The position numbers were made by a program, and so were the translations under genes. Below the pieces are notes generated by a model. The model was not told where the DNA came from. It searched no databases and saw only the letters and a program-made list of their open reading frames with translations. Of a stretch of 64,000 bases of DNA, positions 1,121 to 58,666 are shown one piece after another. The number at the start of each line of letters is the position of its first letter. The stretch's first letter is position 1. The DNA comes from a virus (taxonomy: Duplodnaviria; Heunggongvirae; Uroviricota; Caudoviricetes): IMG/VR virus record IMGVR_UViG_3300021431_000099, positions 1 through 64,000 of that record. One strand, written 5' to 3'.

Positions 1121-1196
1121 TGGAGCGTCCTATGAGTGCTGCCCTCATCAATCGCGGTTTTGCAGACCGCTCCGTTCGCTGGTTCGGTAAGGACGC
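1121..1196 (-). tRNA. tRNA-Cys(GCA), 76 nt with encoded CCA and U73; non-canonical T-loop (GGCAGCA) and D-loop
   Basis: Acceptor gcgtcct/aggacgc is a perfect 7 bp. Anticodon arm gcggt-ctgcaaa-accgc. Discriminator U, as in Cys tRNAs. Confidence 0.55.
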
Positions 1197-1199
1197 TTA

Positions 1200-1358
1200 T
1201 TATTTACTAAAATCCTCCAAATAGGTCATAAAGGCCATCATCCATGCAGAAATATAAACTACCCAAAATTGCCAAGTTTTGATATTGAAACCGTTACTAA
1301 ACATTACTACTGTAAGAATGGTTCCAAAAGTAAGACGGCCAAATTTATACTTATTCAT
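1200..1358 (-). CDS. small hydrophobic membrane protein (52 aa), not in the ORF table
   Basis: ATG at 1358 is preceded by AAGGAGAG. Protein MNKYKFGRLTFGTILTVVMFSNGFNIKTWQFWVVYISAWMMAFMTYLEDFSK has two hydrophobic segments. Confidence 0.35.
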   Translation of the reverse strand: MNKYKFGRLTFGTILTVVMFSNGFNIKTWQFWVVYISAWMMAFMTYLEDFSK

Positions 1359-1452
1359 TATACTCTCCTTATATTGGCGGAGCCCCGCGGTACTGCCCTT
1401 TGTTTTCTCGGACCTTGCTTTCCGAGCGTGTTCTTTACACTATGGCCCCATG

Positions 1453-1542
1453 TGGTCGAGCACCCCAGATTCGAACTGGGACTTGCCTTGTACAGGTCTT
1501 TGGCTTATAAGGCCACGGCTTTCACCATTAAGCTAGTGCTCG
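1453..1542 (-). tRNA. class II (long variable arm) tRNA with apparent anticodon UAU and encoded CCA; identity unclear
   Basis: Acceptor cgagcac/gtgctcg, D-arm gctt-aatggtga-aagc, anticodon loop cttataa closed by a 4-bp stem, 19-nt variable arm, T-arm cccag-ttcgaat-ctggg. Confidence 0.55.
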
Positions 1543-1972
1543 TTGAATCTCGCGGTTTCTTCTCCTATTGGCATCTTCCGGGCCTCAATCCATCTGAGCC
1601 TCCACTTGATTTCACCGCGAGGGACATTGTAAAGGAGTTAACACTCGCGTTGTGTATACTCCAAGAAATATTTGTGTATCATTTGCTCTTATTGGTAGAT
1701 ACTCTCCATCCGAGACCTCACCGCCTATTATTCACGCACGGATTCGTGGCCACCACTAACGAGGACGACTTCCGCTAGACTCGTTAATAACGATAAATCT
1801 AGTTACCGAGCGAATCTTGTGTGTATTCCGGACTACCTTAACGGGGCAAGAGAACTCCCGGCATTTACATACTGCAAATACATAATACAAGTTCTACTAT
1901 TCTCATATTATTAGCTACAACAGACCCTTTTCCCTTTCGCGATAAGGAGGATTTTTACAGGGTGAACCTTAT

Positions 1973-2050
1973 TGGTCGTTCTGGCTGGATTTGAACCAGC
2001 GACTTCCATCTTATCAGGATGGCACTCTATACCAGCTGAGTTACAGAACG
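1973..2050 (-). tRNA. tRNA-Ile(GAU)
   Basis: Acceptor cgttctg/cagaacg, A73 and CCA. D-arm actc-agctggtata-gagt. Anticodon arm ccatc-ctgataa-gatgg. T-arm gctgg-ttcaaat-ccagc. Confidence 0.85.
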
Positions 2051-2054
2051 ATGA

Positions 2055-2125
2055 GGCCAAATATTAGAATCGAACTAATAATGGAAGTTTACGAAACTTC
2101 TGTTTTACCATTAAACTAATTTGGC
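2055..2125 (-). tRNA. tRNA-Thr(CGU), CCA not encoded
   Basis: Acceptor gccaaat/atttggc. Anticodon arm gaagt-ttcgtaa-acttc. T-arm attag-ttcgatt-ctaat. Confidence 0.75.
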
Positions 2126-2129
2126 ATGG

Positions 2130-2200
2130 CAGGAGACTAAGGATTTGAACCCTAACCAGCCGGGTTGGAGCCGGATATGCTACCATTACACCAGTCTCCT
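2130..2200 (-). tRNA. tRNA-Trp(CCA)
   Basis: Acceptor aggagac/gtctcct. Anticodon loop ctccaac closed by a ccgg/ccgg stem. T-arm taggg-ttcaaat-cctta. Confidence 0.7.
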
Positions 2201-2273
2201 AAATCTAGACACATTCTAATTTCAGCATAAATGGCGCTAATAGTAGAAACAGTTGCTGTGCGTGTCTAGTTGT

Positions 2274-2360
2274 GGTGGGAGATGAGGGAATCGCACCCAC
2301 TCGACCTCGAAAGGACAGGTTTTACAGACCTGCGTGTCTACTTTATCACTTTAATCTCCC
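2274..2360 (-). tRNA. tRNA-Tyr(GUA), class II, encoded CCA
   Basis: Acceptor gggagat/atctccc. Anticodon arm caggt-ctgtaaa-acctg. Long variable arm. T-loop tgcgatt. Confidence 0.75.
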
Positions 2361-2370
2361 ATAATGTAAA

Positions 2371-2481
2371 TGGTGGGGAGGGACAGGATTTGCACCTGCG
2401 AAGCTTATTGGTTATAGCTAGCATACCGGTATAAGCACCAGACTCACCGGCTGGCTCCTTTGACTACTTGGATACCTCCCC
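2371..2481 (-). ncRNA. atypical 111-nt tRNA-like element: intact acceptor, T-arm and CCA, but about 18 extra nt and no canonical anticodon stem-loop
   Basis: Acceptor ggggagg/cctcccc is a perfect 7 bp, followed by A73 and CCA. T-arm gcagg-tgcaaat-cctgt. The interior carries the palindromes ACCGGT, GCTAGC and AAGCTT, and no U33 loop could be placed. Confidence 0.4.
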
Positions 2482-2487
2482 ATATAA

Positions 2488-2562
2488 TGGCGTGCGATAG
2501 AGGATTCGAACCCCTATGCCGTGGTCCGTAGCCACGTATCCTCTCCGTTAGATGAATCGCAC
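2488..2562 (-). tRNA. tRNA-Arg(ACG)
   Basis: Acceptor gtgcgat/atcgcac, G73 and CCA. Anticodon arm cgtgg-ctacgga-ccacg. T-arm agggg-ttcgaat-cctct. Confidence 0.85.
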
Positions 2563-2667
2563 ACGCGTCCCATTTTTGTTAGCTTTACTTGTGGAAATAG
2601 GAAACACACAAGGCACTGTACAGTTCATGACGCTGCTTTGGGTTTGGTGCCGTGCTTTCGTACCTTC

Positions 2668-2744
2668 TGGTGCTCCACCTGGGATTCGAACCCAGACTCC
2701 CCTGATTAAGAGTCAGATGCATTAGCCAATTGTGCTAGTGGAAC
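2668..2744 (-). tRNA. tRNA-Lys(CUU)
   Basis: Acceptor gttccac/gtggagc, A73 and CCA. Anticodon arm tctga-ctcttaa-tcagg. T-arm ctggg-ttcgaat-cccag. Confidence 0.8.
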
Positions 2745-2751
2745 ATAGAAA

Positions 2752-2823
2752 TGGACCTATGGGGAATCGAACCCCAGTTTTATGCGTGCAAAGCATATGT
2801 ACTAGCCGCTATACTATAAGCCC
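2752..2823 (-). tRNA. tRNA-Ala(UGC), CCA not encoded
   Basis: Acceptor gggctta/taggtcc (with G·U pairs). Anticodon arm tatgc-tttgcac-gcata. T-arm tgggg-ttcgatt-cccca. Confidence 0.8.
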
Positions 2824-2828
2824 ATAAG

Positions 2829-2903
2829 TGGCATCGGTACTAGGAATTGAACCCAGATAATGACATTAGAAGTGTCATGTTCTATCCGTTGAACTATACC
2901 GAC
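2829..2903 (-). tRNA. tRNA-Arg(UCU)
   Basis: Acceptor gtcggta/taccgat, G73 and CCA. Anticodon arm tgaca-cttctaa-tgtca. T-arm ctggg-ttcaatt-cctag. Confidence 0.85.
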
Positions 2904-3097
2904 AAATAATACCAAACACTAAAAGCTTGATTAAGTATCAACTTTATTTCTAGGCACTCGTTTTGCTTAATAACGACGGCCTTTAGTATTTGGCAGTTCA
3001 ATTTTCTATATATCATCCAATACTTACATATAAGAAAATTGCTGTTTGTGCCTAACCGCAATGCGGATTGGTGGCTCGGGGTGGAGTCGGGCCACCC

Positions 3098-3490
3098 TTA
3101 ATCGCTTCTAGCCAAATAATCTTTATAAGATAAATTTTCAGTATTATTTAACCAATGAAATTCTCTATGGCAATTAGAGCATAGTAAATCACACTTTTCT
3201 AATTCTTTAAAAAATTGAGTTAAATCATATCCTTTTGCTAAATCAGATAATTCACTATCTTTTTCAGCCGGATTACGATGATGAAAATCTAACAAATATG
3301 ACTTTGTATTTCCACATTTTAAACATTTCCCACCCAGTTTTTGAATACCAATTTCTTTAGCTTTGTGCCGAATCAATGTAATTGAATTACTAGTACCTTG
3401 TGGATTACATTCAAAACAATATATTCTTTTTCCGCCATATTTAATGGTTTCAAATTGTTTCCCGCATAAAGCGCAATTTTTAATTGCCAT
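3098..3490 (-). CDS. HNH homing endonuclease, free-standing inside the tRNA array
   Basis: HNH signature CLKCG...HHRNP...N...CSNCHREFH. Real start is the internal Met MAIKNCALCGK at 3490, preceded by GGAGTGATAATT. Confidence 0.8.
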   Translation of the reverse strand: MAIKNCALCGKQFETIKYGGKRIYCFECNPQGTSNSITLIRHKAKEIGIQKLGGKCLKCGNTKSYLLDFHHRNPAEKDSELSDLAKGYDLTQFFKELEKCDLLCSNCHREFHWLNNTENLSYKDYLARSD

Positions 3491-3576
3491 AATTATCACT
3501 CCTATGATATTATATTTATTGAGCCGGTGTAGGAGCACCTTTATCTCATTAAGGAGCGACCTTAATGCTACCTCAT

Positions 3577-3654
3577 TGGTGGCTTGAGATGGAGTCGAAC
3601 CATCACCCTCTGGTTTTTCAGACCAGCACTACAGACCGCATAAGTTATCAAGCC
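3577..3654 (-). tRNA. tRNA-Phe(GAA)
   Basis: Acceptor ggcttga/tcaagcc, A73 and CCA. Anticodon arm ctggt-ctgaaaa-accag. T-arm gatgg-ttcgact-ccatc. Confidence 0.85.
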
Positions 3655-3712
3655 ATAATCTAGACCCATTGTCTTTCACGTGCGTCTGCCGCTGCGCCAT
3701 CGCCCCATAAAT

Positions 3713-3787
3713 GGTGGGGCGAAGTGGGAGTCGAACCCACAATCTTTCGGGATTTACAGTCCATTTTGTGAATTGCTGTATGGGTCT
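3713..3787 (-). pseudogene. tRNA remnant or pseudo-tRNA: 3' half only, no complementary 5' acceptor strand
   Basis: T-arm gtggg-ttcgact-cccac, then ttcgcccc-a-CCA, plus a gga-ctgtaaa-tcc anticodon-like hairpin (GUA). The 5' 25 nt cannot pair with the 3' acceptor strand. Confidence 0.4.
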
Positions 3788-3863
3788 TGGTGCGAAGTGA
3801 CGGACTTGAACCGCCGACCCTTTGCTTGTAAGGCAAATGCTCTCCCAGCTGAGCTAACCTCGC
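3788..3863 (-). tRNA. tRNA-Val(UAC)
   Basis: Acceptor gcgaggt/acttcgc, A73 and CCA. D-arm gctc-agctggga-gagc. Anticodon arm tttgc-cttacaa-gcaaa. T-arm ggcgg-ttcaagt-ccgtc. Confidence 0.85.
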
Positions 3864-4117
3864 ATAAATCTGGTGTCCATATAAGTATGTCGGTAACGCG
3901 CCGCCAGAAGCACGGCTACATTCTCTATCAGTAAGTACTCACGTCATGTATTACTCTCTTGCGTTATTATGCTTTATTTCATCCTCAATTGGTATATCGT
4001 TTCTCCAATTGAGGCGTAATACTACCGCCACCCTTCCGCACCTTGTAGCCACAGCCATATCGGGTGGATTCCGTTCTTTCTATAAATATTATATCAGAAT
4101 TTATGTAAGAAGTCAAA

Positions 4118-4194
4118 TGGTATCCCACCCGAGATTTGAACTCGGAAAATCCAGAACCTTAATCTGACGCGTATGCCAATTCCGCCAGTGGGAC
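4118..4194 (-). tRNA. class I tRNA with apparent anticodon AAG (CUN reader if A34 becomes inosine); isotype uncertain
   Basis: Acceptor gtcccac/gtgggat, A73 and CCA. Anticodon arm tcaga-ttaaggt-tctgg. T-arm ccgag-ttcaaat-ctcgg. Confidence 0.55.
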
Positions 4195-4198
4195 AAAA

Positions 4199-4270
4199 TA
4201 GGACGACCGAGAATCGAACTCGAATATCTAGGGCCACAACCTAGTGTTCTACCATTGAACTATCGCCCTC
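4199..4270 (-). tRNA. tRNA-His(GUG) with genome-encoded G-1
   Basis: Acceptor agggcga/tcgtcct with an extra 5' G. Anticodon arm ctagg-ttgtggc-cctag. T-arm tcgag-ttcgatt-ctcgg. Confidence 0.8.
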
Positions 4271-4277
4271 ATAGTCG

Positions 4278-4943
4278 TTAGGGAAGATTTGCCTTAGCAG
4301 CAATTTCAATCTGCTTCTGATGATAAGGACTAACCTTATTTGTATTATGTAAACGGCTATTTGTAAAATGTATACAATGATGACCGGGGAAATTATTAAA
4401 TCTAATAGAACTGCCACCATGTGGCTGACAATTCATAGAGGCCGCATAATTTACACCATTAATGGTAACAAAAATGGCACGATGTCCCCATGACCATTTT
4501 TTACAAGCCTTTTTAAAGGCTCTTGTATCTGCGGCAGTACATGGTTGTACATCCGCATGATTGTGTCCAGCCTTACGGATTTCTTTCCAAGAAATACCAG
4601 TGGCTACATCTGTAATTGTTGCTGTTACACCCTTAGCGAAAATTTTTTGAATATCAGAAGTCCACCAATCCATTTTTTGTGCTGTTCCATGTGCTGGAGC
4701 ACAAGAGCTGCCAGGTTTTCTATCTAACTTTGGAGCGTCTGGGGCAAGTAGTTTTTCATAGGTTTTGGTATCACATTTTCCATTAGCAGTTAATTTAGCA
4801 ACAGTTTGAAATTCTTTTACTGCCGCTTTTGTTTGATTACCAAAAATGCCATCTACAGCCCCGTTCAAATAACCTAAATTCTTTAATTGTTGCTGTATTT
4901 CTTTTACTTTTTCGCCCCTGCTACCATATTTTAATGTAGTCAT
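4278..4943 (-). CDS. endolysin: N-terminal peptidoglycan-binding domain plus C-terminal zinc-peptidase-like domain
   Basis: PG_binding_1-like LKYGSRGEKVKEIQQQLKNLGYLNGAVDGIFGNQTKAAVKEFQ. HxxxD (GHNHAD) and H-rich motifs in the C-terminal domain. Start is the Met of MTTLKYG at 4943, after GGAGGGAGG. The upstream part of the listed ORF overlaps tRNA-Ser. Confidence 0.75.
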   Translation of the reverse strand: MTTLKYGSRGEKVKEIQQQLKNLGYLNGAVDGIFGNQTKAAVKEFQTVAKLTANGKCDTKTYEKLLAPDAPKLDRKPGSSCAPAHGTAQKMDWWTSDIQKIFAKGVTATITDVATGISWKEIRKAGHNHADVQPCTAADTRAFKKACKKWSWGHRAIFVTINGVNYAASMNCQPHGGSSIRFNNFPGHHCIHFTNSRLHNTNKVSPYHQKQIEIAAKANLP

Positions 4944-4969
4944 ATGCCTCCCTCCTGCAAAAAATAAGT

Positions 4970-5062
4970 TGGCGCCCGCGGAAGGATTTGAACCCTCGCG
5001 CCGGTTTCCCGACCTCTCGGTTTTCAAGACCGATCTCTTCAGCCAAACTTGAGTACGCGGGC
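4970..5062 (-). tRNA. tRNA-Ser(UGA), class II
   Basis: Acceptor gcccgcg/cgcgggc, G73 and CCA. Anticodon arm tcggt-cttgaaa-accga. Long variable arm. T-arm gaggg-ttcaaat-ccttc. Confidence 0.85.
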
Positions 5063-6165: not shown

Positions 6166-8115
6166 TTATAAAGAATTATACCAAGTGTTGTAATTATGAT
6201 TATCAATCATTGTATTCGTTGTTGGAATAAACATTACGCGCGCAGAATCATGGCGAGAATGGAATTCGGTAGTAGTTTCTAAACTATAATAGAAAAGACC
6301 ACTATTTGTTGTAGATGAAGAAAAACCTCCAATCATTCCAATGGTTTGTTCATTTAGATTATTGCTTTGATATGTATAGTCACCGACTGGTAAATTACTG
6401 TTAGCACTAGAAGATACTTCAATTGGAAGATAAATCCAATCAAAATTATTATCATATCCAAAAGCATTTATCCAACCATCAGTATTTGTTATTTTGAAGC
6501 TAATATTAGTGCCATTGTAGTTAGCGGTGTGGTTTATAATTGTTAATCCATCAATCATTTTCCACATATTACCGTATGGATTTTCTACGCCACGATATGA
6601 AATAGAGCATTTGCCTGTTTCAGAATAAGTTGTTTCAACACCTTTTCGTACAGTAATAGAAGCGAGCGCCTGCCCAGAATTATTTAATAGGGGCAAAGTA
6701 GAGCCAGTATTAAAACCTAAATTTATATTAGCGACATTAGGTGCTTCTGTAAGTCCTTTATTAAAAGTATTTTGTATATTTGTACTGCCATATTCTACCA
6801 TCATTAGCATTTGATTCATGGAAACAAATTTTAAATCAGTCATTTTCCAACCTGTGCCGTTATTTTCCGCCATTTTTTTCGCATTTTCCGCTGTAAATTC
6901 TTGAGTCGTGCCACTGATTGGCTTTGCATTGATGGCAGAGACTAAGCAATCATGTTCAAAATCAATGTCTTGTGCATCGTTATATACAAATGTATTTGAA
7001 GAATAACGATAAGCACTTCCTTCAAATGCTGGTAATAAAACATATCTTAAAGCGTTACCATTTTCATCGCGGAAAATAGGGTGCAACATAAATCCGCCAT
7101 ACTTTTTATCAGACAAATAAAGATGTTCTTTATTTACTTTAATACCATTAGTTGTTTTTGTAGTAGATAGTGGTACACGTAAATAATAGAAAGATGGCTG
7201 ATAGACCATAATGCGTTGATCAGCTACGGTTGCAGCCGTATCTTCAGAAGTAAGGAAACGAATAATGTTACCTTGCGCGTCCACAATACAACGTTTGCGG
7301 CCGCCAAACATCGTAAATTTATCGAATGCTGTGCCGGCAGTTAATTCTTTTGCACCTTGTAAGCGAGAAAAAGTTTTATTGGCATAGTCAATTTCTAAAC
7401 CAACTATATTATCGTTTTTATAAGTACCCGTAATTATTTGGGTAAGAATTACATCAGCTTCTGTAATAGAGCTTGGAATAATATTACCATTTTCATCAAT
7501 AGCCACGATAGATCCCTCATCTTCTGCCGAAATATTACCAGAGATATTACCAGAACCAGAACCTCCACTGGATGGAATATTGTTGATTTTGGTTTCTAAC
7601 TCTGTTTTTTGATTTTGTAATGCTTGTGTAATAGCCTTTTGAGTCATACTACCATCTTCGTTACTGCCGGTAGATGTATAGTTTTTCATTGTTTCATAGG
7701 CTTGTTGAACGCCCTTCTTGCGAACGCGAGTCTTTTTAATTTTTGCCGCGGATGTATTTTCATCTGCCACATCTACTTCTGTTACCGCTTCGGCCGCAGC
7801 GTATTGCGCGGCGGAGGCATTAGAATTAGCTTCATTTACAGAAGCGGTAACAGAAGAAATTGCGGTCTCAATTTTTTCATCAACAATATCATTTACAGCA
7901 CTACTAACATCTTCTTGTAAAGTATCAAAATTATCAGCCACTTCTTGCGCGCGAGTGTTTGCGGCTTCGGCTGCGTCCAAAGCGTCTTGTGCTTCATCTA
8001 TCTTTGTTGCGACTTGATTAGCTTTTGACATAGCCTCTTTTGCCTGTTTCATTAATTTTGATGTTTCGGCAGAGAAGGATTGGCTTTTTGCTATTAGAAT
8101 ATCAATTATATCCAT
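6166..8115 (-). CDS. tail fibre protein
   Basis: 649 aa. N-terminal Ala/Gln-rich coiled coil, Gly/Ser linker (SGGSGSGNISGNIS) and a beta-rich C-terminal domain. RBS AAAGGAGGATGA. Confidence 0.65.
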   Translation of the reverse strand: MDIIDILIAKSQSFSAETSKLMKQAKEAMSKANQVATKIDEAQDALDAAEAANTRAQEVADNFDTLQEDVSSAVNDIVDEKIETAISSVTASVNEANSNASAAQYAAAEAVTEVDVADENTSAAKIKKTRVRKKGVQQAYETMKNYTSTGSNEDGSMTQKAITQALQNQKTELETKINNIPSSGGSGSGNISGNISAEDEGSIVAIDENGNIIPSSITEADVILTQIITGTYKNDNIVGLEIDYANKTFSRLQGAKELTAGTAFDKFTMFGGRKRCIVDAQGNIIRFLTSEDTAATVADQRIMVYQPSFYYLRVPLSTTKTTNGIKVNKEHLYLSDKKYGGFMLHPIFRDENGNALRYVLLPAFEGSAYRYSSNTFVYNDAQDIDFEHDCLVSAINAKPISGTTQEFTAENAKKMAENNGTGWKMTDLKFVSMNQMLMMVEYGSTNIQNTFNKGLTEAPNVANINLGFNTGSTLPLLNNSGQALASITVRKGVETTYSETGKCSISYRGVENPYGNMWKMIDGLTIINHTANYNGTNISFKITNTDGWINAFGYDNNFDWIYLPIEVSSSANSNLPVGDYTYQSNNLNEQTIGMIGGFSSSTTNSGLFYYSLETTTEFHSRHDSARVMFIPTTNTMIDNHNYNTWYNSL

Positions 8116-34324: not shown

Positions 34325-34786
34325 TCAATGTTTAAGCTTCCAAAGTATCACATTATAATCATTTAATTCTTCTTCAATAATGGAATAAATAATCTCCCAT
34401 TCGCCACCGCCAAGACCTGCGCCAATACCGTATGGCATATTAATTGTTATATTATTTAAATGTAATCCTTTTATTTCATGTTTAATTGCGTCACAACATT
34501 CGCGAAAGGCAGCATAGTCTGTATTACAATTGTATACGCTCCAGTTATCCTGCGCAAACATACAACAAGTCCATTTACCATCTATTTCCGCACGCATTAG
34601 TATTGTGCCAAGTAATTCATCTGCTATAAAATCATGACATAAACTTTTATATTGATTAAAAGCAAATGGATATAATTCTTTAAAAGTTTTAGCAACACCT
34701 CGTCCCATACTGCCTCTACAATTTACTTGATGACATATAATACCGGTCGGCGCCGAAAATAAATCTCCCTCTACTATTTTAATCAT
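34325..34786 (-). CDS. macro domain protein of the TARG1/OARD1/DarG type (ADP-ribosyl hydrolase)
   Basis: GDLFSAPTGIICHQVNCRGSMGRGVAKTFKELYP closely matches the TARG1 N-terminal GDLF...H.....C.MG.GIA motif. ATGA overlap with the Prs-like gene indicates translational coupling. Confidence 0.7.
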   Translation of the reverse strand: MIKIVEGDLFSAPTGIICHQVNCRGSMGRGVAKTFKELYPFAFNQYKSLCHDFIADELLGTILMRAEIDGKWTCCMFAQDNWSVYNCNTDYAAFRECCDAIKHEIKGLHLNNITINMPYGIGAGLGGGEWEIIYSIIEEELNDYNVILWKLKH

Positions 34787-35598
34787 GTAAATTCCCTCAT
34801 AACAATAATATTTGGATGATTACTGCGATAAATAGAATTTGTAGTATATACTTTTGTAATTAAATTTGGAATGTCCATTAATGATTGGCCATTAATATGC
34901 GGTTGAAGTACAGTATTTTCGCAATGAGACGCCCAAACATAAATGTTATTACAGCCCATTTCTTTTAGTTGCTTACTTGCTAGATATAGGGTACTGCCGC
35001 GAGAAATAATATCATCCACAATAATAATATCATGGCCAGCAATCATATGTTTTGCGCCCAAAACTTGAAGAGAATTTATTTTTTGTGTAGACCATTCTCT
35101 TTCCTTCACACCAAAAGTAAAATAAGTATCGCCAATAATGTTCTTATATCTCTTTTGTGCGCCTTCATCAGTGAAAAATAAGGTTGCTTCTGGATATGTA
35201 TTAAGTAAGTATTGAATTTCTCGCTCTGGCTTTTCTACTCGTACATTATTTAATAGTGCAGGAGTGACATTAGAATGTGGGTCATATATCCTTACTTGAT
35301 TAAAATGAAGTGAGTTAATAAATTCACAAAAATACTTTAAAGTAAAACATTCTTCGTTTTCTTTGCATCTATCCATTCTTGCGTGCGGACAATATGGCAT
35401 TTCAAGTATTAACCGTGACATTTCAGATTTTTCTCGTAAGTGATTTACAAGAAAAAATAAATCCGCCATTTCTTCATCGGAATCATAAAGCCAAAGAATT
35501 ACACATACGCCAACTAACGAACGAGGCGCGTATCGTAGTCGTAAAGTTCCATCATTGAATTTCTTAAACTGAACTTCTTCTCCATCTACCTTAATCAT
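34783..35598 (-). CDS. ribose-phosphate pyrophosphokinase (PRPP synthetase / Prs-family) homologue
   Basis: PYCPHARMDR (Prs PYxxYARQDR), DPHS (Prs DLHA) and the PRPP-binding loop HDIIIVDDIISRGSTL. 271 aa, shorter than canonical Prs. Confidence 0.7.
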   Translation of the reverse strand: MIKVDGEEVQFKKFNDGTLRLRYAPRSLVGVCVILWLYDSDEEMADLFFLVNHLREKSEMSRLILEMPYCPHARMDRCKENEECFTLKYFCEFINSLHFNQVRIYDPHSNVTPALLNNVRVEKPEREIQYLLNTYPEATLFFTDEGAQKRYKNIIGDTYFTFGVKEREWSTQKINSLQVLGAKHMIAGHDIIIVDDIISRGSTLYLASKQLKEMGCNNIYVWASHCENTVLQPHINGQSLMDIPNLITKVYTTNSIYRSNHPNIIVMREFT

Positions 35599-47387: not shown

Positions 47388-47606
47388 TTAAAATCCACTG
47401 AATTTATAAACTAAATTTTCTCCATTCTTATGACTAATCTCCATCCAATAACGATGGTGTAATGCCCATGCTTCAGCCTGTTTAACTTCATCTTCTTTTA
47501 ATGGATAATAAAAGTTTGTTTTTCCCATTTCTCTTGCTTCTTTCACTCGTAAGTTAAGAGAATAATGAAGCGCGGGAATTGGCTTTTTCTTTTTAAATAA
47601 ACTCAT
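47388..47606 (-). CDS. hypothetical protein (about 72 aa)
   Basis: Likely start is MSLFKKKK, with ATGA overlap onto the nucleotidyltransferase stop. Confidence 0.45.
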   Translation of the reverse strand: MSLFKKKKPIPALHYSLNLRVKEAREMGKTNFYYPLKEDEVKQAEAWALHHRYWMEISHKNGENLVYKFSGF

Positions 47607-48322
47607 AGTTCTTTCTTTAAATATCCTTTCACAATATTTTTCATACAAATTGCCAAATCATCATCCCAAGCCGCAATTAAATTAAGTTCAGATTCAGAAT
47701 GCATAAGAAGATAATAATTACGGCAATTATCCGCAAAACGCTTCATATCTTCAAAAGTAGCAAAAATAGCTTCTTTTGTAGGAAGTTCTCTTTCTTCATT
47801 AAAACGAAGTTCGCGCGCACTTGAAAAAACTTCATATTTTGCCCAAGTTGTATTATCCATAACAAAATCATGTTCTGCGATGAAAGAGCAAAGACTAATA
47901 AGATAAAGTGCGCGTGAAGCAGATTTACGATTGACTCCATAACGGTCAAGTGAATTTTTAATCATGCCTTCAACCGTGGCGATAAAACTATCCCACACAA
48001 TGAAAAGATAGCCTTCAGAATAAGCACGCTTTGCTGCATCAAGGTAAACCTCAATGTCCTCTACACATTTAATATAACGAGAAAAAAGCATCTCAAGAGC
48101 ATTGATATTGCCCTTACGAACGTTCTTATCAAAAGTAAGAATGCTCATGACATTGTAATGCTCTGGGTCATATCCATCAGGTAAATCATTTTTATCTACT
48201 TTGTGGTAGTTATAAAAATCATTAAAGTCAGGCATCATAAGGAGTTTATAATCAAAATCAGAATCAGGGCCATCTAACTGGTAATTCTGGGAACCATACA
48301 AGATTTGTGCTACTGGTTTCAT
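47603..48322 (-). CDS. Pol-beta-superfamily (minimal) nucleotidyltransferase
   Basis: ILYGSQNYQLDGPDSDFDY matches the GS-x9-DxD nucleotidyltransferase signature. Confidence 0.6.
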   Translation of the reverse strand: MKPVAQILYGSQNYQLDGPDSDFDYKLLMMPDFNDFYNYHKVDKNDLPDGYDPEHYNVMSILTFDKNVRKGNINALEMLFSRYIKCVEDIEVYLDAAKRAYSEGYLFIVWDSFIATVEGMIKNSLDRYGVNRKSASRALYLISLCSFIAEHDFVMDNTTWAKYEVFSSARELRFNEERELPTKEAIFATFEDMKRFADNCRNYYLLMHSESELNLIAAWDDDLAICMKNIVKGYLKKEL

Positions 48323-49030: not shown

Positions 49031-49852
49031 TCAAATATTGACTAACTCATTTACATATTCTGGATGCTCTTGGAAAGAAGGAATATGCATTGCTACTTCC
49101 CAGCGCTTACGAGGGACTTTAATTTTAGTATCATCCGGCCGCGTGAAGGTTTCTACACATTCATATTTCCGTACGCAAATACCTTCACGATAGAAGGAAG
49201 GAATAAAGTTCCAATCCACCTTATGTTTTTCTGCCATCATTTGCTTGCGCTCTTCCGTAGACTTACCTTCAAGCTCCTTATCAGAAAACAATGTGCGCGC
49301 AACCATACTTACAGCATTTCGCTGGCAGTCTTTTCTTCTCCACAAAAAATAGTTGTTGACTTCTTCTTTGGGAAGTATAAATGCACGGCAATCAAACACA
49401 GCTAATTTACTTTCCTGCGCCTTATAGTGTGCTTCAATCCATTCTGGAATGATATAATCATTTTCCTCGCAATCTTCAACAAAGTCTTTAATGGCAAGGT
49501 CATGTGCCTTATAGAAAAATACAGAAGCCATACTCGCGGCGACACTACACATTTTTTGTAGATTTTTACCAAACCAAGACTCTGTTTCAAGAGTATCATA
49601 GTCTGTTAGAAGAATAGAGATTTCATCACTCTGAACGTATGCCATCTTTGCACCAGAGATATTCTGACAAAGCTGCTTTGCCGTGTCCCACATAGCTTCC
49701 ATAAATACGCGGTCAAAAGGCTTATTAAAGCTCTTTGTATAACTATGGAAAGCCTTACCGTCTAGCCGCAAAATACAAGGCATCCTCCTTGGAAGATAAA
49801 AACGATTTACATTCTCATACGCCTTAAAACGGTCACCCATCTTATCAATCAT
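49031..49852 (-). CDS. Thg1-like protein (tRNA-His guanylyltransferase family; 3'-5' nucleotidyltransferase)
   Basis: KAYENVNRFYLP...ILRLDGKAFHSYTKSFNKPFD...AYVQSDEISILL matches the Thg1/TLP motifs RLDGRxFH and SDE(Y/I)S. Confidence 0.75.
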   Translation of the reverse strand: MIDKMGDRFKAYENVNRFYLPRRMPCILRLDGKAFHSYTKSFNKPFDRVFMEAMWDTAKQLCQNISGAKMAYVQSDEISILLTDYDTLETESWFGKNLQKMCSVAASMASVFFYKAHDLAIKDFVEDCEENDYIIPEWIEAHYKAQESKLAVFDCRAFILPKEEVNNYFLWRRKDCQRNAVSMVARTLFSDKELEGKSTEERKQMMAEKHKVDWNFIPSFYREGICVRKYECVETFTRPDDTKIKVPRKRWEVAMHIPSFQEHPEYVNELVNI

Positions 49853-52260: not shown

Positions 52261-53142
52261 TCAATGGCTCCTTTCATCTGCGTCATGTAGAATAAGAATC
52301 TTCTTCCATAGTTCTTCACCTAAGCGCTTTTCCCATACAGAAGAAGCATTGGTGTCATAAGGCTTCATATGATAACAAACCAGCTGAATGACTTCAATCG
52401 GTAGCTCCATATTCATAGCAAGGAAAGCACCATAACTATCATGAGAATAGTAATGTGCTATGCCATTTTCATCATAGCTACGAGTATAGGCTTTTCCAAT
52501 ATCATGTGCGCCGGCCGCAGCATACATATTTACCTGTTCATCATTAGACAAACTATCAACATTTACCTTATTAATACAATCAAAAAGATGGTTAAATAAA
52601 GTAAGAGTATGATGTGGGTTATCCTGCGAGCCTGCTGCGCGCACATCTGCCCACATATTTTCTGCGAACTTTTTTACATCATATTCTGCGGGAGTAACAA
52701 TTTCAATTACATCCCATCCCTCGTTATAAACGGGCATCTGGAATTGCTTGATCTGTCGCTCAAATAACCAATCAGGAACCTGACGCTCGCGCTTCTTATT
52801 CCATTCCTTACAAATGGAAAGAGGAGTATTAAATACAACGACACGACACTTAACATCAGGGAAACGGCGCTTAATTTGATTAAGAGTATGAATGCGATGC
52901 TTCATAGCAAGATTGGTAGCACAGTAAAAGACATTGATATTATGAGAAAGAGCAGACTTAGTGCGCGCGAACATTTCACTAAACACCTTATCTGGATTCT
53001 GCTGGTCATTAGCATCTCCCCATAGCTCTCTCCTTACCATATCGGAATCTGCTACTATATCAGTAGCAATATTATGCTGCTCATAGCACCAATGGCTCTT
53101 ACCGCTGCCGCTAATACCTACCGTCATAACAAATTCAGTCAT
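52261..53142 (-). CDS. polynucleotide 5'-kinase (P-loop) fused to an HD-domain phosphohydrolase (Pnkp-like RNA repair enzyme)
   Basis: MTVGISGSGKSHW (Walker A, T4 Pnk-like N-terminus). C-terminal H..H...HD (HHTLTLFNH...GAHDIGK). Confidence 0.7.
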   Translation of the reverse strand: MTEFVMTVGISGSGKSHWCYEQHNIATDIVADSDMVRRELWGDANDQQNPDKVFSEMFARTKSALSHNINVFYCATNLAMKHRIHTLNQIKRRFPDVKCRVVVFNTPLSICKEWNKKRERQVPDWLFERQIKQFQMPVYNEGWDVIEIVTPAEYDVKKFAENMWADVRAAGSQDNPHHTLTLFNHLFDCINKVNVDSLSNDEQVNMYAAAGAHDIGKAYTRSYDENGIAHYYSHDSYGAFLAMNMELPIEVIQLVCYHMKPYDTNASSVWEKRLGEELWKKILILHDADERSH

Positions 53143-56737: not shown

Positions 56738-56926
56738 TTACCATAGCAAATACTCCAGATAGTCAGGCTCCAAGCCTAAATACAAAGCAACAATATCTTC
56801 ACATTCTTGATAACTTCCGCGAGCGGCCGCACCCCAGAGTTCTTCTCTACATTCTTCTATGAGGTTTTCTGCTTCAAGTTGCGAGATGCCGTCTCGCTGC
56901 ATAAGGATTTTTACAATTTCATTCAT
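56738..56926 (-). CDS. hypothetical protein (about 62 aa)
   Basis: Start is MNEIVKIL, after GAGAGGG. Confidence 0.45.
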   Translation of the reverse strand: MNEIVKILMQRDGISQLEAENLIEECREELWGAAARGSYQECEDIVALYLGLEPDYLEYLLW

Positions 56927-57410
56927 GGCAAACCCTCTCAATTGTCTTATTTTGTGCGAATAAAGTACCTGCACTCATTACAATCGCATCAGTAATAAAA
57001 GCAATAGCATTCTTTGGAATCTTTACAGCATAAGGGATACCATATAATTTACATTCTATTACAGTTTTAATTCCTAGAATACCAATCGCTACCGCAATAA
57101 TAGTAATAATAATGTTACTAATAGTAGCATTATGTTTATACAGGCGGCCGCAGATTAAACCAATAACTAAATTACCAAGAAACCATCCTGGCGGGAACCA
57201 ACCGGTCGTAATTAGGGAAATTAAAACACATCCAACTCCACCGACAATCATTCCGGAAATTGCGCCGAAATGATAACAGTAAAGTGCAAAAGCAACATAA
57301 CCCAAATCAAGACTGATATGCGCGATAAGTGGAATCTTCATACTCATACTTAACACAACATACAATGCAATTCCAATGGCAGTAAAAGTAATTTTCTTTG
57401 TATTAGTCAT
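56919..57410 (-). CDS. polytopic membrane protein resembling an ECF-transporter S (substrate-capture) component or QueT-like transporter
   Basis: 163 aa with about 5 TM helices: ITFTAIGIALYVVLS ... ISLDLGYVAFALYCYHFG ... GMIVGGVGCVLISL ... IIITIIAVAIGILGI. Confidence 0.5.
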   Translation of the reverse strand: MTNTKKITFTAIGIALYVVLSMSMKIPLIAHISLDLGYVAFALYCYHFGAISGMIVGGVGCVLISLITTGWFPPGWFLGNLVIGLICGRLYKHNATISNIIITIIAVAIGILGIKTVIECKLYGIPYAVKIPKNAIAFITDAIVMSAGTLFAQNKTIERVCHE

Positions 57411-58369: not shown

Positions 58370-58666
58370 TTAATTCTCCATTTTTGCGCCACAGTTTGGG
58401 CAATAATTTCTGTCTGTTCCTGCATTAACCCAGTGAAAGCATTCACTACATTGATATCTTCTATTTCCGACGAAATTAAAGTCAATCCATAGTCCATGCA
58501 CCACCGGCGCGACATCTACGGCGGGGATAGATTCAATAACTTTGATTACGCTTTCAGGGCTTACGTCGCCATAATATCGGTCAACACGTTCATCATCAAA
58601 TGCTGCAATCGCCGCCGCCCTTGAAATTAAATCATCTTTTGCTCTATTCATCTTCCTGTGCTCCAA
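58370..58666 (-). CDS. zinc-ribbon protein (98 aa)
   Basis: CSEC ... CPNCG. Confidence 0.5.
   Translation of the reverse strand: MEHRKMNRAKDDLISRAAAIAAFDDERVDRYYGDVSPESVIKVIESIPAVDVAPVVHGLWIDFNFVGNRRYQCSECFHWVNAGTDRNYCPNCGAKMEN

What the first reader, a model, noticed from the sequence alone, without database searches (positions are those of the whole stretch)
1121..5062. tRNA array of about 16 genes with several aberrant members
Thirteen members fold canonically. The others do not. (i) 1453-1542 has a long variable arm but the anticodon loop reads cuUAUaa, and UAU is not an anticodon of any class II family (Leu, Ser, Tyr); it could be a recoding or missense tRNA. (ii) 4118-4194 is class I with anticodon AAG. 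A34 is normally tolerated only as inosine, so it could read Leu CUN codons. (iii) 2371-2481 has a perfect acceptor stem, T-arm and CCA but is 111 nt long with a palindrome-rich insert and no recognisable anticodon loop. (iv) 3713-3787 keeps only the 3' half. (v) tRNA-Cys at 1121-1196 has a GGCAGCA T-loop. A mix of intact, decaying and possibly re-coded tRNAs points to rapid tRNA turnover or decoy and recoding functions.
Basis: seen in the sequence. Interest (0 to 1): 0.6.

Follow-up and report, generated by a model that had tools for sequence, protein, structure and literature searches.

The report
Phage tRNA array with permuted tRNA
This is a working tRNA gene cluster of a large uncultivated phage whose odd-looking members are conserved rather than decaying, and one of them, read as a leftover half, is a whole tRNA-like gene with its two halves in swapped order.

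Summary
The array is real and lies entirely on the minus strand. ARAGORN and Rfam agree on 13 tRNAs. Comparison with about ten related phage contigs adds tRNA-Tyr (2277-2360) and tRNA-Cys (1121-1195).

- **(i) 90-nt UAU tRNA:** confirmed. Its body is Ile-type, and relatives carry a 76-77-nt tRNA-Ile(UAU) at the same slot.
- **(ii) Class-I tRNA(AAG):** confirmed. Ten pairs show compensatory changes, and it belongs to a class-I tRNA-Leu family (AAG, CAA, UAA).
- **(iii) 111-nt RNA:** a sub-threshold tRNA-like RNA with a 9-nt anticodon loop, conserved in three phages.
- **(v) GGCAGCA T-loop of tRNA-Cys:** invariant across the clade. Stems covary, and the D-loop changes with the T-loop.
- **(iv) Wrong as read:** the missing 5' half lies directly downstream. 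Region 3655-3787 is a circularly permuted tRNA-like gene: closing helix, anticodon-like hairpin, T-arm, acceptor hairpin with an ACCA-UUUAU loop, D-arm. All 180 pair cells hold in six variants.

This layout matches bacterial YrlA Y RNAs, but no Ro/TROVE gene, Ro-binding motif or Rfam match was found. Re-joined, ARAGORN reads it as tRNA-Tyr or tRNA-Phe. The window also encodes Rnl1, a Pnkp-like enzyme and Thg1. Function is inferred only.

The parts
4970..5062 (-). tRNA-Ser(UGA), class II, canonical
   Evidence: ARAGORN; Rfam 51.3 bits
4199..4269 (-). tRNA-His(GUG). It has A1-U72, A73, a G at -1 in the DNA and no encoded CCA.
   Evidence: ARAGORN; Rfam 65.7 bits; sequence. A Thg1-like enzyme is encoded at 49031-49852.
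4118..4194 (-). Class-I tRNA with anticodon AAG, a Leu CUN decoder.
   Evidence: ARAGORN and Rfam 49.1 bits. In 7 distinct homologues 10 of 20 pairs have compensatory changes, and U33-A34-A35-G36 is invariant. The body is shared with class-I tRNAs carrying CAA and UAA.
4088..4116 (-). Sigma-70-type promoter TTGACT-17-TATAAT with an extended TG, inside the array
   Evidence: Matches 11 of 12 consensus positions. The motif recurs at about 50695 and 33261 and is conserved in relatives.
3864..4087 (-). Conserved leader of about 225 nt between the promoter and tRNA-Val; role unknown
   Evidence: 94-98% identical in L005 and L006. No Rfam hit. GenBank phages match only the tRNA-Val part of the query.
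3788..3863 (-). tRNA-Val(UAC), canonical
3655..3787 (-). E1, a circularly permuted tRNA-like gene.

Parts in window coordinates:
- Closing helix P1: 3780-3787 with 3662-3669.
- ACAGCAAU motif: 3772-3779.
- Helix P1b: 3768-3771 with 3676-3679.
- Anticodon-like hairpin GGA-CUGUAAA-UCC: 3750-3762.
- T-arm: 3724-3740.
- Acceptor 3' strand: 3716-3722.
- ACCA: 3712-3715.
- UUUAU: 3707-3711.
- Acceptor 5' strand: 3700-3706.
- D-arm: 3682-3697.
   Evidence: Sequence. MFE fold z = -3.5. In six variants 180 of 180 pair cells are paired, 4 pairs are compensatory, and slid controls give 26-49%. ARAGORN calls the re-permuted sequence tRNA-Tyr or tRNA-Phe.
3577..3654 (-). tRNA-Phe(GAA), canonical
3098..3490 (-). 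HNH homing-type endonuclease gene inserted in the array
   Evidence: phrog_2255 at 2.5e-23. Absent at this site in L006 and L009.
3069..3097 (-). Relic of the 3' end (T-arm, acceptor strand and ACCA) of a different tRNA-Phe allele, just downstream of the HNH gene
   Evidence: Sequence, compared with the tRNA-Phe of L005 and L009.
2949..3052 (-). E3. It has the same closing-helix module as E1 (GGCAC..ACAGCAAU...GUGCC-UAGA) but an AU-rich interior and no tRNA parts.
   Evidence: Module scan; 94-97% identical in five relatives.
2829..2903 (-). tRNA-Arg(UCU)
2751..2824 (-). tRNA-Ala(UGC)
2668..2744 (-). tRNA-Lys(CUU)
2488..2562 (-). tRNA-Arg(ACG)
2371..2481 (-).

Features:
- Acceptor GGGGAGG/CCUCCCC followed by ACCA.
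- D-loop AAGUAGUCAAA.
- 5-bp stem with the 9-nt loop CCGGUGAGU.
- 34-35-nt variable arm.
- T-loop UGCAAAU.
   Evidence: Rfam tRNA 25.6 bits, below 29. 99% identical in L008 and L007 and 97% in L010. Two of the three substitutions keep a predicted stem pair and the third lies in an unpaired stretch.
2277..2360 (-). tRNA-Tyr(GUA), class II. It has a 3-bp D-stem, the D-loop AUAAAGUAGA without GG, and the T-loop UGCGAUU.
   Evidence: Missed by ARAGORN here. Rfam tRNA-Sec model 32.7 bits. Identical in L011. The 79% homologue in L009 is called tRNA-Tyr by ARAGORN.
2204..2266 (-). E2, a miniature of E1. It has the closing helix CUAGACAC/GUGUCUAG, ACAGCAAC, and an apical 5-bp hairpin whose loop is GCCA-UUUAU. 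It has no T, D or V arms.
   Evidence: Sequence. Five variants are 91-95% identical, with pair-preserving changes.
2127..2200 (-). tRNA-Trp(CCA)
2055..2125 (-). tRNA-Thr(CGU)
1973..2050 (-). tRNA-Ile(GAU)
1543..1972 (-). Conserved structured RNA of about 430 nt and unknown family, always just 5' of the tRNA-Ile(UAU)/CAU slot
   Evidence: RNAalifold on 7 homologues gives 74 pairs, 23 with compensatory changes. No Rfam hit at E<=10. Nothing found in GenBank phages or, with a two-block pattern, in representative bacterial genomes.
1453..1542 (-). The body is Ile-type.
   Evidence: ARAGORN and Rfam 57.2 bits. No homologue in any fetched locus. Its best global matches are the clade's tRNA-Ile(UAU), tRNA-Ile(GAU) and CAU tRNAs.
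1375..1449 (-). tRNA-like RNA without a T-stem. It has an acceptor-like stem followed by G-CCA, the D-arm GUGU/ACAC, a stem with a 10-nt loop, and a GGGCAGUACC stretch resembling the Cys T-loop.
   Evidence: RNAalifold on 4 homologues that are 93-99% identical, with no compensatory changes. No Rfam hit.
1121..1195 (-). tRNA-Cys(GCA) with U73, the D-loop AACCAGCGAA and the T-loop GGCAGCA.
   Evidence: Sequence. Homologues in L001, L008, L009 and L010 keep both loops and show compensatory changes in the T, anticodon and acceptor stems. L011 and L013 carry a canonical tRNA-Cys at the same place.

Best explanation
**What it is.** Region 1121-5062 is a transcribed, clade-conserved tRNA operon of a large uncultivated phage. 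The related contigs that carry it are 100-185 kb. The lysins have peptidoglycan-binding domains, and window G+C is 35%.

**Contents.** It encodes 15 decoding tRNAs plus several tRNA-derived RNAs that do not decode.

**The unusual decoders are functional variants, not wrecks.**
- tRNA-Leu here belongs to a class-I family without the long variable arm.
- tRNA-Cys, tRNA-Tyr and the 111-nt RNA use alternative elbows, in which T-loop changes at positions 55/56 are matched by D-loop changes at 18/19.
- The 90-nt UAU tRNA is an AUA-reading tRNA-Ile with an enlarged variable region.

**The supposed half tRNA (E1).** It is a circularly permuted tRNA-like gene.
- Its ends pair in a conserved helix that replaces the anticodon-loop end of the molecule.
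- Its acceptor stem is closed by a loop reading ACCA-UUUAU.

**Inferred fate of E1.**
- It is released from the precursor when the flanking tRNA-Val and tRNA-Phe are processed.
- It folds into a tRNA-like L shape.
- RNase P cuts it before G1, and the tail is trimmed back to CCA.
- The result is a two-piece tRNA mimic, as was shown for Mycobacterium smegmatis YrlA.
- It then serves as a scaffold or decoy for tRNA-binding enzymes. This would fit a phage programme that also supplies Rnl1, a Pnkp-like kinase/phosphatase and Thg1.

**Status of the steps.** The structures and their conservation are shown. Processing and function are inferred.
For: **Array.** 13 tRNAs are found by two methods.

**E1.**
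- All six variants pair in 180 of 180 cells, against 26-49% when partners are slid.
- Compensatory changes occur at 3 acceptor pairs and 1 T-stem pair, and wobble-compatible changes occur in both closing helices.
- ACCA and UAU|GGGG are invariant.
- The L009 variant changes its T-loop to UGCAAAU together with the loss of G18 in the D-loop. This is the same rule seen across the clade's tRNAs. All 60 tRNAs with a TTC T-loop have GG in the D-loop. None of the TGC, GGC or TTA T-loops do.
- The order V, T, acceptor hairpin, D with paired ends is the published YrlA layout. M. smegmatis YrlA, which has a 7-bp acceptor stem, is cut by RNase P and carries CCA in vivo (PMC4201824).
- The closing-helix module is shared by E1, E2 and E3. 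It was found in none of about 70 unrelated loci that contain ACAGCAAT.
- The leader and trailer are nearly invariant even where the flanking tRNAs are different alleles.

**tRNA(AAG).** 10 compensatory pairs, a shared class-I Leu body, and matching codon use.

**tRNA-Cys.**

**tRNA-Ile(UAU).**. AUA makes up 30% of Ile codons.

**Enzymes in the window.** Rnl1, the Pnkp-like enzyme and Thg1.
Against: **Against YrlA membership.**
- No Ro/TROVE gene was found among the window ORFs of suitable size.
- The YrlA motif GNCGAAN0-1G is absent from the 5' end.
- Rfam gives no Y-RNA match even at E<=10 on the element alone.

**Features that a pure mimic does not need.**
- The hairpin upstream of the T-arm has a perfect anticodon-loop signature, CU-GUA/GAA-AA.
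- The 5' half ends in CGUGA, which can pair with the UCCCG that follows that loop.

**Limits of the data.**
- All E1 variants come from one clade, so covariation rests on six sequences.
- The 90-nt tRNA-Ile and the 1375-1449 RNA have no informative variation.
- There are no expression data.
Confidence: 0.5

Rival explanations
1. E1 is a true circularly permuted tRNA gene. The leader and trailer, meaning the closing helix plus ACAGCAAU, are removed. A31 is joined to C32 by the phage Rnl1-type ligase to give a circular intermediate. RNase P and 3' trimming then open the acceptor loop. The product is an ordinary class-I tRNA-Tyr(GUA) in this phage, or tRNA-Phe(GAA) in others. This is the algal and archaeal pathway without a BHB motif.
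For: - ARAGORN on the re-joined halves calls tRNA-Tyr (window, L009) or tRNA-Phe (L008, L011). The anticodon stem is CGUGA/UCCCG and the loop CUGUAAA or CUGAAAA.
- ACCA, the U-rich spacer and G1 are conserved exactly as for the real tRNAs of the array.
- The window encodes Rnl1 and a Pnkp-like enzyme.
- Sister phages carry a tRNA-Ile(UAU) split in its anticodon loop by a whole tRNA(CUA). Both acceptor stems covary there, which implies that ligase-dependent tRNA rejoining exists in this clade.
Against: - There is no BHB motif, and no known bacterial or phage endonuclease would cut at 31/32.
- The stem CGUGA/UCCCG has a U-C mismatch and never varies, so it is untested by covariation.
- The variable loop would be 6-7 nt.
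- The local hairpin and helix P1b compete with that stem.
- The product would duplicate the tRNA-Tyr or tRNA-Phe already present in each array.
- E2 and E3 carry the same module without any tRNA body.
Confidence: 0.28
2. The aberrant loci are decaying pseudogenes and fragments left by rapid tRNA gain and loss, with no function of their own.
For: - Slots do change alleles between relatives.
- An HNH gene with a tRNA-Phe relic shows recent rearrangement.
- The 90-nt tRNA-Ile is unique to this genome.
- The Cys homologue in L002 has lost part of its anticodon arm.
- E2 looks like a deletion derivative of an E1-like element.
- The 1375-1449 RNA has no compensatory changes.
Against: - Compensatory changes keep every stem in E1, tRNA-Cys and tRNA(AAG).
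- Odd T-loops are always matched by D-loop changes.
- The E1 leader and trailer are more conserved than the neighbouring tRNAs.
Confidence: 0.1
3. The closing-helix modules E1, E2 and E3 are DNA-level elements. They would be miniature inverted-repeat elements or recombination and homing sites that shuffle tRNA cassettes, not functional RNAs.
For: - They have 8-bp terminal inverted repeats containing CTAG, and E3 has an AT-rich interior.
- They sit at cassette boundaries in a mosaic array.
- HNH endonuclease genes lie nearby.
Against: - The repeat arms differ between copies in a compensatory way: GACAC/GTGTC, GGCAC/GTGCC, GGCGC/GCGCC, GACCC/GGGTC. That fits a helix, not a protein-recognised terminus.
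- The ACAGCAAY motif occurs on one side only.
- Every copy lies on the tRNA strand.
Confidence: 0.08
4. Items (i) and (ii) are missense or recoding tRNAs. The UAU tRNA with a long arm would be charged like a class-II tRNA (Leu, Ser or Tyr). The class-I AAG tRNA would be charged with something other than Leu.
For: - A long variable arm with UAU, and a short one with AAG, are both atypical for bacteria.
- Sister phages do carry amber suppressors.
Against: - The body and acceptor stem of the UAU tRNA are Ile-type, and orthologous slots hold a class-I tRNA-Ile(UAU).
- Three different Leu anticodons share the class-I body.
- From my own knowledge, E. coli LeuRS reads neither the anticodon nor the variable arm.
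- AUA and CUU are heavily used sense codons in the window.
Confidence: 0.07

Closest known systems
YrlA-type bacterial Y RNAs (Chen et al. 2014, PMC4201824), including those of mycobacteriophages
   Same: - Length is about 110-130 nt, and the 5' and 3' ends pair in a long stem with an internal loop.
- The interior runs V hairpin, T-arm, acceptor-like hairpin, D-arm, with tRNA-type conserved nucleotides.
- M. smegmatis YrlA has a 7-bp acceptor stem, is cut by RNase P and carries CCA.
- A smaller partner RNA shares the stem module. YrlB plays that role there; E2 and E3 do here.
- Both are associated with RNA-repair genes.
   Different: - No Ro60/Rsr (TROVE) gene was found in the 64-kb window, whereas YrlA usually lies within 4 kb of rsr.
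- The 5' motif GNCGAAN0-1G is absent. The conserved motif here is ACAGCAAY, with CUAGA at the 3' end.
- Rfam gives no match.
- CCA is fully encoded here.
- The V hairpin carries a canonical anticodon loop.
- The element sits inside a tRNA operon between tRNA-Val and tRNA-Phe.
Circularly permuted tRNA genes of Cyanidioschyzon merolae, green algae and Thermofilum pendens (PMC3978253, PMC3218864)
   Same: - The 3' half is encoded upstream of the 5' half.
- The two are joined through a short intervening sequence at the acceptor end. T. pendens also encodes CCA.
- The leader and trailer pair with each other.
- Re-permutation gives a cloverleaf with a sense anticodon.
   Different: - Those genes depend on a bulge-helix-bulge motif and the archaeal or eukaryotic splicing endonuclease. 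Neither is present here.
- The junction here would be at 31/32, which is not a reported position.
- According to the 2014 review read here, all 34 known examples are from algae and archaea.
Two-piece tmRNA from permuted ssrA genes
   Same: - The gene order is permuted, with the acceptor 3' strand and CCA placed upstream.
- It functions as two base-paired pieces after processing.
- It is a bacterial-type system.
   Different: - E1 has no tag reading frame and no pseudoknots.
- ARAGORN finds no tmRNA.
- The Rfam tmRNA_permuted model gives 9.5 bits against a gathering score of 47.
Phage T4 tRNA region and large-phage tRNA arrays with RNA-repair genes (PMC7824862)
   Same: - It is a clustered tRNA operon interspersed with small stable RNAs and homing endonuclease genes.
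- The same genome carries Rnl1, a polynucleotide kinase/phosphatase, and sporadically Thg1.
   Different: To my knowledge, a permuted tRNA-like member, a class-I tRNA-Leu family and the alternative-elbow tRNAs have not been described for those arrays.
GOLLD and ROOL large RNAs found next to tRNA arrays
   Same: The 430-nt RNA at 1543-1972 is a large, covariation-rich RNA embedded in a phage tRNA array.
   Different: It matches neither family nor any other Rfam family at E<=10, and it is shorter.

Membership tests
tRNA (Rfam RF00005 / ARAGORN) | Covariance-model score at or above the gathering score of 29 bits | tested here: met
   13 genes score 47.4-67.3 bits, including item (i) at 57.2 and item (ii) at 49.1.
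tRNA (Rfam RF00005 / ARAGORN) | The same score criterion, applied to the 111-nt RNA, tRNA-Cys, E1 and the 1375-1449 RNA | tested here: not met
   - 111-nt RNA: 25.6 bits.
- tRNA-Cys and the 1375-1449 RNA: no hit at E<=10.
- E1: only its T-arm matches, at 13.9 bits.
tRNA (functional cloverleaf) | Four stems maintained by compensatory substitutions in homologues, tested on tRNA-Cys and tRNA(AAG) | tested here: met
   - tRNA(AAG): 10 of 20 pairs are compensatory, and the anticodon stem covaries at 5 of 5 pairs.
- tRNA-Cys: the T, anticodon and acceptor stems differ compensatorily among the window, L001 and L008/L009.
YrlA Y RNA | Paired termini, with interior stem-loops in the order V, T, acceptor-like, D | tested here: met
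   compared with the layout in PMC4201824.
YrlA Y RNA | tRNA-type conserved nucleotides and tertiary partners in the T and D loops | tested here: met
   - U8, A14, G18/G19, A21, U54, C56 and A58 are conserved.
- Positions 18 and 55 co-vary in the L009 variant.
YrlA Y RNA | GNCGAAN0-1G motif near the 5' end, the presumed Ro60 contact | tested here: not met
   The 5' end reads AGACCCAUACAGCAAUU in all variants. The nearest resemblance, CCCGAAAG, lies between the V hairpin and the T-arm.
YrlA Y RNA | Encoded within about 4 kb of an rsr (TROVE) gene on the same strand | tested here: not met
   - No TROVE hit was found in the window ORFs scanned with Pfam, PHROGs or NCBIfam.
- The rest of the phage genome could not be examined.
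YrlA Y RNA | Match to a curated covariance model | tested here: inconclusive
   - There is no Y-RNA hit at E<=10 on 3640-3800.
- A paper that predicted ncRNAs with Rfam lists yrlA (PMC9569102). I did not verify that the family is in this copy of Rfam.
Permuted tRNA gene (Soma type) | The 3' half lies upstream of the 5' half, joined at the acceptor end by a short intervening sequence | tested here: met
   The sequence reads TCGCCCC-ACCA-TTTAT-GGGGCGA, and the acceptor stem covaries.
Permuted tRNA gene (Soma type) | Re-permutation yields a canonical cloverleaf with an anticodon | tested here: inconclusive
- The anticodon stem has a mismatch and never varies.
- ARAGORN's intron mode is permissive.
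Permuted tRNA gene (Soma type) | Bulge-helix-bulge motif at the leader/trailer junction | tested here: not met
   The two would-be cleavage sites lie in different helices, P1b and the local hairpin, more than 20 nt apart.
Permuted tRNA gene (Soma type) | A circular RNA intermediate and a ligated mature tRNA | not testable with these tools
   Needs RNA from infected cells.
Two-piece tmRNA | tRNA-like domain together with a tag reading frame and pseudoknots | tested here: not met
   ARAGORN finds no tmRNA. tmRNA_permuted scores 9.5 bits against 47.
TadA (tRNA A34 deaminase) encoded by the phage | A CDA-fold deaminase closest to TadA | tested here: not met
   - ORF 48548-48976 matches dCMP deaminases 4p9c and 2hvv in the PDB.
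- It matches ComEB only weakly.

The most novel reading that the evidence does not exclude
This phage clade may run its own protein-based tRNA cut-and-rejoin system, which has not been described for bacteria or phages.

- **E1 as a permuted tRNA gene.** E1 would be a genuine permuted tRNA-Tyr/Phe gene. It would mature through a circular intermediate sealed by the phage Rnl1-type ligase and opened by RNase P.
- **A new processing signal.** The conserved closing-helix module (helix, ACAGCAAY, CUAGA) would stand in for the archaeal BHB motif.
- **A nested tRNA in sister phages.** There, tRNA-Ile(UAU) carries a whole amber-suppressor tRNA as an 'intron' in its anticodon loop. The intron would be excised by ordinary tRNA end-processing and the exons ligated.
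Probability: 0.25. Interest if true: 0.9.

Novelty: new variant of a known kind. Interest (0 to 1): 0.72.

Why it matters
**For annotation.** Standard tRNA finders miss two of this array's decoding tRNAs and call none of its tRNA-derived RNAs. A fragment that looks like debris is a complete, conserved, permuted tRNA-like gene.

**If E1 is a YrlA-like mimic.** It would extend tRNA-mimicking Y-type RNAs to a setting with no Ro protein detected nearby. It would also tie them to phage tRNA supply and repair, and so to the contest with host anticodon nucleases.

**If E1 is a true permuted tRNA.** Together with the nested tRNA in sister phages, it would show ligase-dependent tRNA splicing outside archaea and eukaryotes.

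**For tRNA structure.** The class-I tRNA-Leu family and the alternative D-loop/T-loop pairings are natural experiments on which tRNA features bacterial translation really requires.

Tried and rejected
- **Close relatives among GenBank phages.** None were found for the array, the 430-nt RNA, the leader or E1. Only tRNA-Val-type matches and one 77-nt match of unknown meaning to unannotated Enterococcus and Listeria phage records turned up.
- **More E1 variants.** A pattern scan of IMG/VR and of the metagenome collection returned only the same clade and the same six variants. All other hits were chance.
- **Phage-encoded TadA to explain A34.** Rejected. The deaminase resembles dCMP deaminases.
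- **Ro/TROVE gene.** Not found in the window. It could not be tested in the rest of the genome, because I had no reliable TROVE query and loci are limited to about 20 kb.
- **The 430-nt RNA as a reduced RNase P RNA, ROOL, GOLLD, tmRNA or group I intron.** By eye there is a resemblance, from my memory of RNase P RNA sequences, between AGAUGGAUUGAGGCCC and the AGAUGAAUG block of RNase P RNA. Rfam gives no hit at all at E<=10. A candidate P4-like pairing was not maintained in L008 and L009. The idea was dropped.
- **The 430-nt RNA in bacterial genomes.** A two-block pattern returned four chance hits.
- **The 111-nt RNA as tRNA-Sec or an intron-containing tRNA.** There is no UCA anticodon and no 6-bp D-stem, and ARAGORN with introns allowed does not call it.
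- **The AAG anticodon arm as an inverted copy of the tRNA-Lys(CUU) arm.** The sequences do not match. I treated the resemblance as coincidence.
- **Ligating the natural E1 or E2 ends to make a 7-nt capping loop.** I considered this. The resulting loops (AGAUUAU, AUUUCAA) are not anticodon-like, and the idea fails for E3.
- **Failed call.** One script call returned nothing and was repeated.

Full report
**1. Observation**

All tRNA genes in 1121-5062 are on the minus strand.

- ARAGORN finds 13: Ser-UGA, His, AAG, Val, Phe, Arg-UCU, Ala, Lys-CUU, Arg-ACG, Trp, Thr-CGU, Ile-GAU and UAU.
- Rfam's tRNA model finds the same 13 at 47-67 bits. It also gives a sub-threshold tRNA-Sec-like hit at 2277-2360.
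- Reading the spacers on the minus strand shows that this hit is a class-II tRNA-Tyr(GUA).
- The same reading shows that 1121-1195 is a tRNA-Cys(GCA) with U73.
- GenBank phages hold no close relative.
- IMG/VR does hold related contigs of 100-185 kb with the same array. I fetched them through the lysin at 4278-4943, through the SPFH protein at 118-1092, and through DNA patterns.

**2. Item (iv): a permuted tRNA-like gene, not a half tRNA**

Five bases later comes GGGGCGA, then U8 and a D-arm carrying GG.

*Layout.* The element (E1) fills the whole gap between tRNA-Val and tRNA-Phe, 3655-3787. Its first eight bases, AGACCCAU, pair with AUGGGUCU near its end.

*Conservation.* Six distinct variants exist, always between tRNA-Val and tRNA-Phe.

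- On their alignment, 30 proposed pairs are paired in 180 of 180 cells. Sliding the partners gives 26-49%.
- Three acceptor pairs and one T-stem pair change on both sides.
- Four pairs in the two closing helices change in a wobble-compatible way.
- ACCA and UAU|GGGG never change.
- The L009 variant has the T-loop UGCAAAU and has lost G18 from its D-loop.

*Elbow rule.* That matches a rule seen across the fetched loci. All 60 distinct tRNAs with a TTC T-loop have GG in the D-loop. All those with TGC (Tyr), GGC (Cys) or TTA (two Arg alleles) T-loops lack it, as does the 111-nt RNA, whose T-loop reads UGCAAAU. E1 therefore most likely folds into a tRNA-like elbow.

*Range.* Scans of IMG/VR and of the metagenome collection found E1 only in this clade.

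**3. What E1 resembles**

The order of parts is paired ends with an internal loop, then a hairpin, a T-arm, an acceptor hairpin and a D-arm. That is the published layout of YrlA Y RNAs, which also occur in mycobacteriophages.

The M. smegmatis YrlA has a 7-bp acceptor stem, is cut by RNase P and carries CCA in vivo (PMC4201824).

Three YrlA features fail here:

- No TROVE gene was found among the window ORFs tested.
- The motif GNCGAAN0-1G is absent from the 5' end.
- Rfam gives no Y-RNA hit, even on the element alone at E<=10. A paper that predicted ncRNAs with Rfam lists yrlA, so the family is probably in Rfam.

A second reading exists.

- In that reading the 5' half ends in CGUGA, which pairs with the UCCCG that follows the loop CUGUAAA or CUGAAAA.
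- The leader and trailer behave as a 46-nt intron.
- This mirrors algal and archaeal permuted tRNA genes (PMC3978253).
- There is no bulge-helix-bulge motif, and I know of no nuclease that would cut there.
- That stem never varies, so covariation cannot test it.

I rank the tRNA-mimic reading first and the true permuted gene second.

**4. The closing-helix module**

E1 shares its ends with two other elements in the window, E2 (2204-2266) and E3 (2949-3052), and with further copies in relatives.

- The module is a 5-8-bp helix, then two bases, then ACAGCWAY. On the far side it is the complementary strand followed by UAGA.
- The helix differs between copies in a compensatory way: GACAC/GUGUC, GGCAC/GUGCC, GGCGC/GCGCC, GACCC/GGGUC.
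- The same scan found no such module in about 70 unrelated loci that all contain ACAGCAAT.
- E2 keeps a 5-bp apical hairpin whose loop reads GCCA-UUUAU, so it looks like E1 without its T, D and V arms.
- The E1 leader and trailer stay nearly invariant even where the flanking tRNA-Val and tRNA-Phe are quite different alleles.

This points to a sequence-specific role, either protein binding or processing. The partner is unknown.

**5. The other items**

*(i) The 90-nt UAU tRNA.*
- It has no homologue in any fetched locus.
- Its best global matches are the clade's tRNA-Ile(UAU), tRNA-Ile(GAU) and CAU tRNAs. It shares C1-G72, A73 and most of the acceptor stem with them.
- The same slot in L001, L008 and L009 holds a 76-77-nt tRNA-Ile(UAU).
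- AUA makes up 30% of Ile codons in 28 window ORFs.
- I read it as tRNA-Ile with an enlarged variable region.

*(ii) The class-I AAG tRNA.*
- It is present in eight contigs. Ten of its 20 pairs are compensatory, and U33-A34-A35-G36 is invariant.
- Class-I tRNAs with CAA (L011) and UAA (L035) share its D-arm AAUUGGCAUA and A73. This phage group therefore has a class-I tRNA-Leu family.
- That fits my own knowledge that E. coli LeuRS needs neither the anticodon nor the long arm.
- CUU, CUC and CUA make up 297 of 317 CUN codons, which would suit I34. Inosine is untested, and the window's deaminase looks like a dCMP deaminase.

*(iii) The 111-nt RNA.*
- It scores 25.6 bits, below the threshold of 29.
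- It has a 9-nt loop and a 35-nt insert.
- It is 97-99% identical in three contigs. Two of the three substitutions keep a predicted stem pair and the third falls in an unpaired stretch.
- Its function is unknown.

*(v) tRNA-Cys.*
- It keeps GGCAGCA and the D-loop AAYCAGCRAA in five contigs.
- Its T, anticodon and acceptor stems change compensatorily.
- L011 and L013 have a canonical tRNA-Cys at the same place.

**6. Context**

- A strong promoter lies inside the array at 4088-4116.
- An HNH endonuclease gene sits after tRNA-Phe. It is followed by a 29-nt relic of the 3' end of another tRNA-Phe allele. L006 and L009 lack this insertion.
- The window also encodes a T4 Rnl1-type RNA ligase, a kinase plus HD phosphatase related to Pnkp, a nucleotidyltransferase and a Thg1 homologue.
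- Such toolkits are known from jumbo phages. There, TROVE proteins with a tRNA-like partner occur sporadically (PMC7824862).

**7. Verdict**

- The 'decay' interpretation is not supported. The 'turnover' interpretation is supported in part.
- The array is a conserved operon of ordinary tRNAs, unusual but functional tRNAs, and tRNA-derived RNAs.
- The permuted tRNA-like gene is a new variant of a known kind, and its function is only inferred.

Noticed in passing
L002:7376-7536; L015:about 7242-7402; L017:about 4006-4166: In sister phages the tRNA-Ile(UAU) at the slot equivalent to window 1453-1542 is split in its anticodon loop (CUU|AUAA). The insert is a complete 76-77-nt tRNA with anticodon CUA, an amber suppressor, carrying its own ACCA. 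L008 has the same outer tRNA uninterrupted. Both the outer and the inner acceptor stems differ compensatorily between L002 and L015, so both appear to be under selection. The outer halves would need rejoining, perhaps by the Rnl1-type ligase. ARAGORN with introns allowed finds the outer tRNA with a 77-nt or 76-nt intron. A literature search found nothing similar.
   Followed up: partly
window 1543-1972 (-): The 430-nt spacer before the tRNA-Ile(UAU) slot is a conserved structured RNA. RNAalifold on 7 homologues predicts 74 pairs, 23 with compensatory changes. No Rfam family matches at E<=10. Nothing was found in GenBank phages or in representative bacterial genomes. It may be a new large RNA of the kind found beside tRNA arrays, like GOLLD and ROOL.
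   Followed up: partly
window 49031-49852 (-) and tRNA-His 4199-4269 (-): The phage encodes a Thg1-type tRNA-His guanylyltransferase (PF04446 at 4e-30; phrog_4717 at 2e-82). Its tRNA-His has A73 and A1-U72 rather than the bacterial C73. From my own knowledge of the two systems, this suggests eukaryote-style post-transcriptional addition of G-1.
   Followed up: partly
window 58644-59786, 52261-53142, 47603-48322 (-): A tRNA repair set is present: a T4 Rnl1-type RNA ligase, a kinase (AAA_33) plus HD phosphatase related to Pnkp, and a nucleotidyltransferase (phrog_388).
   Followed up: partly
window 3069-3490 (-): An HNH endonuclease gene is inserted after tRNA-Phe. It is followed by a 29-nt relic (T-arm, acceptor strand and ACCA) of a different tRNA-Phe allele, like that of L005 and L009. 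L006 has the same tRNA-Phe with no insertion. A related HNH gene sits at another site of the array in L010.
   Followed up: partly
window 1375-1449 (-): A 75-nt tRNA-like RNA has an acceptor-like stem followed by G-CCA, a D-arm and a 10-nt 'anticodon' loop. It has no T-stem, but a GGGCAGUACC stretch resembles the odd Cys T-loop. It is 93-99% identical in L008, L009 and L010, with no compensatory changes to test it.
   Followed up: partly
clade loci (L001-L017) and window: T-loop and D-loop changes go together across the clade's tRNAs. All 60 tRNAs with a TTC T-loop have GG in the D-loop. T-loops starting TGC, GGC or TTA all lack GG and carry A18-G19-like or U19-like D-loops instead. This suggests alternative 18-55 and 19-56 tertiary pairs.
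   Followed up: partly
window 3864-4116 (-): An internal promoter, TTGACT-17-TATAAT, also recurs at about 50695 and 33261. It is followed by a 225-nt leader that is 94-98% conserved and contains a 10-bp hairpin, CCUCAAUUGG/CCAAUUGAGG. A 77-nt part of the leader matches unannotated Enterococcus and Listeria phage records at 82%.
   Followed up: no
window 1200-1358 (-): A 52-aa hydrophobic ORF (MNKYKFGRL...) lies inside the array between the tRNA-like RNA and tRNA-Cys. It is conserved in L002 and L009.
   Followed up: no
window 34783-35598 and 56919-57410 (-): Auxiliary metabolic genes are present: a ribose-phosphate pyrophosphokinase (phrog_619 at 1e-53) and an ECF-transporter S component (PF07155).
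   Followed up: no
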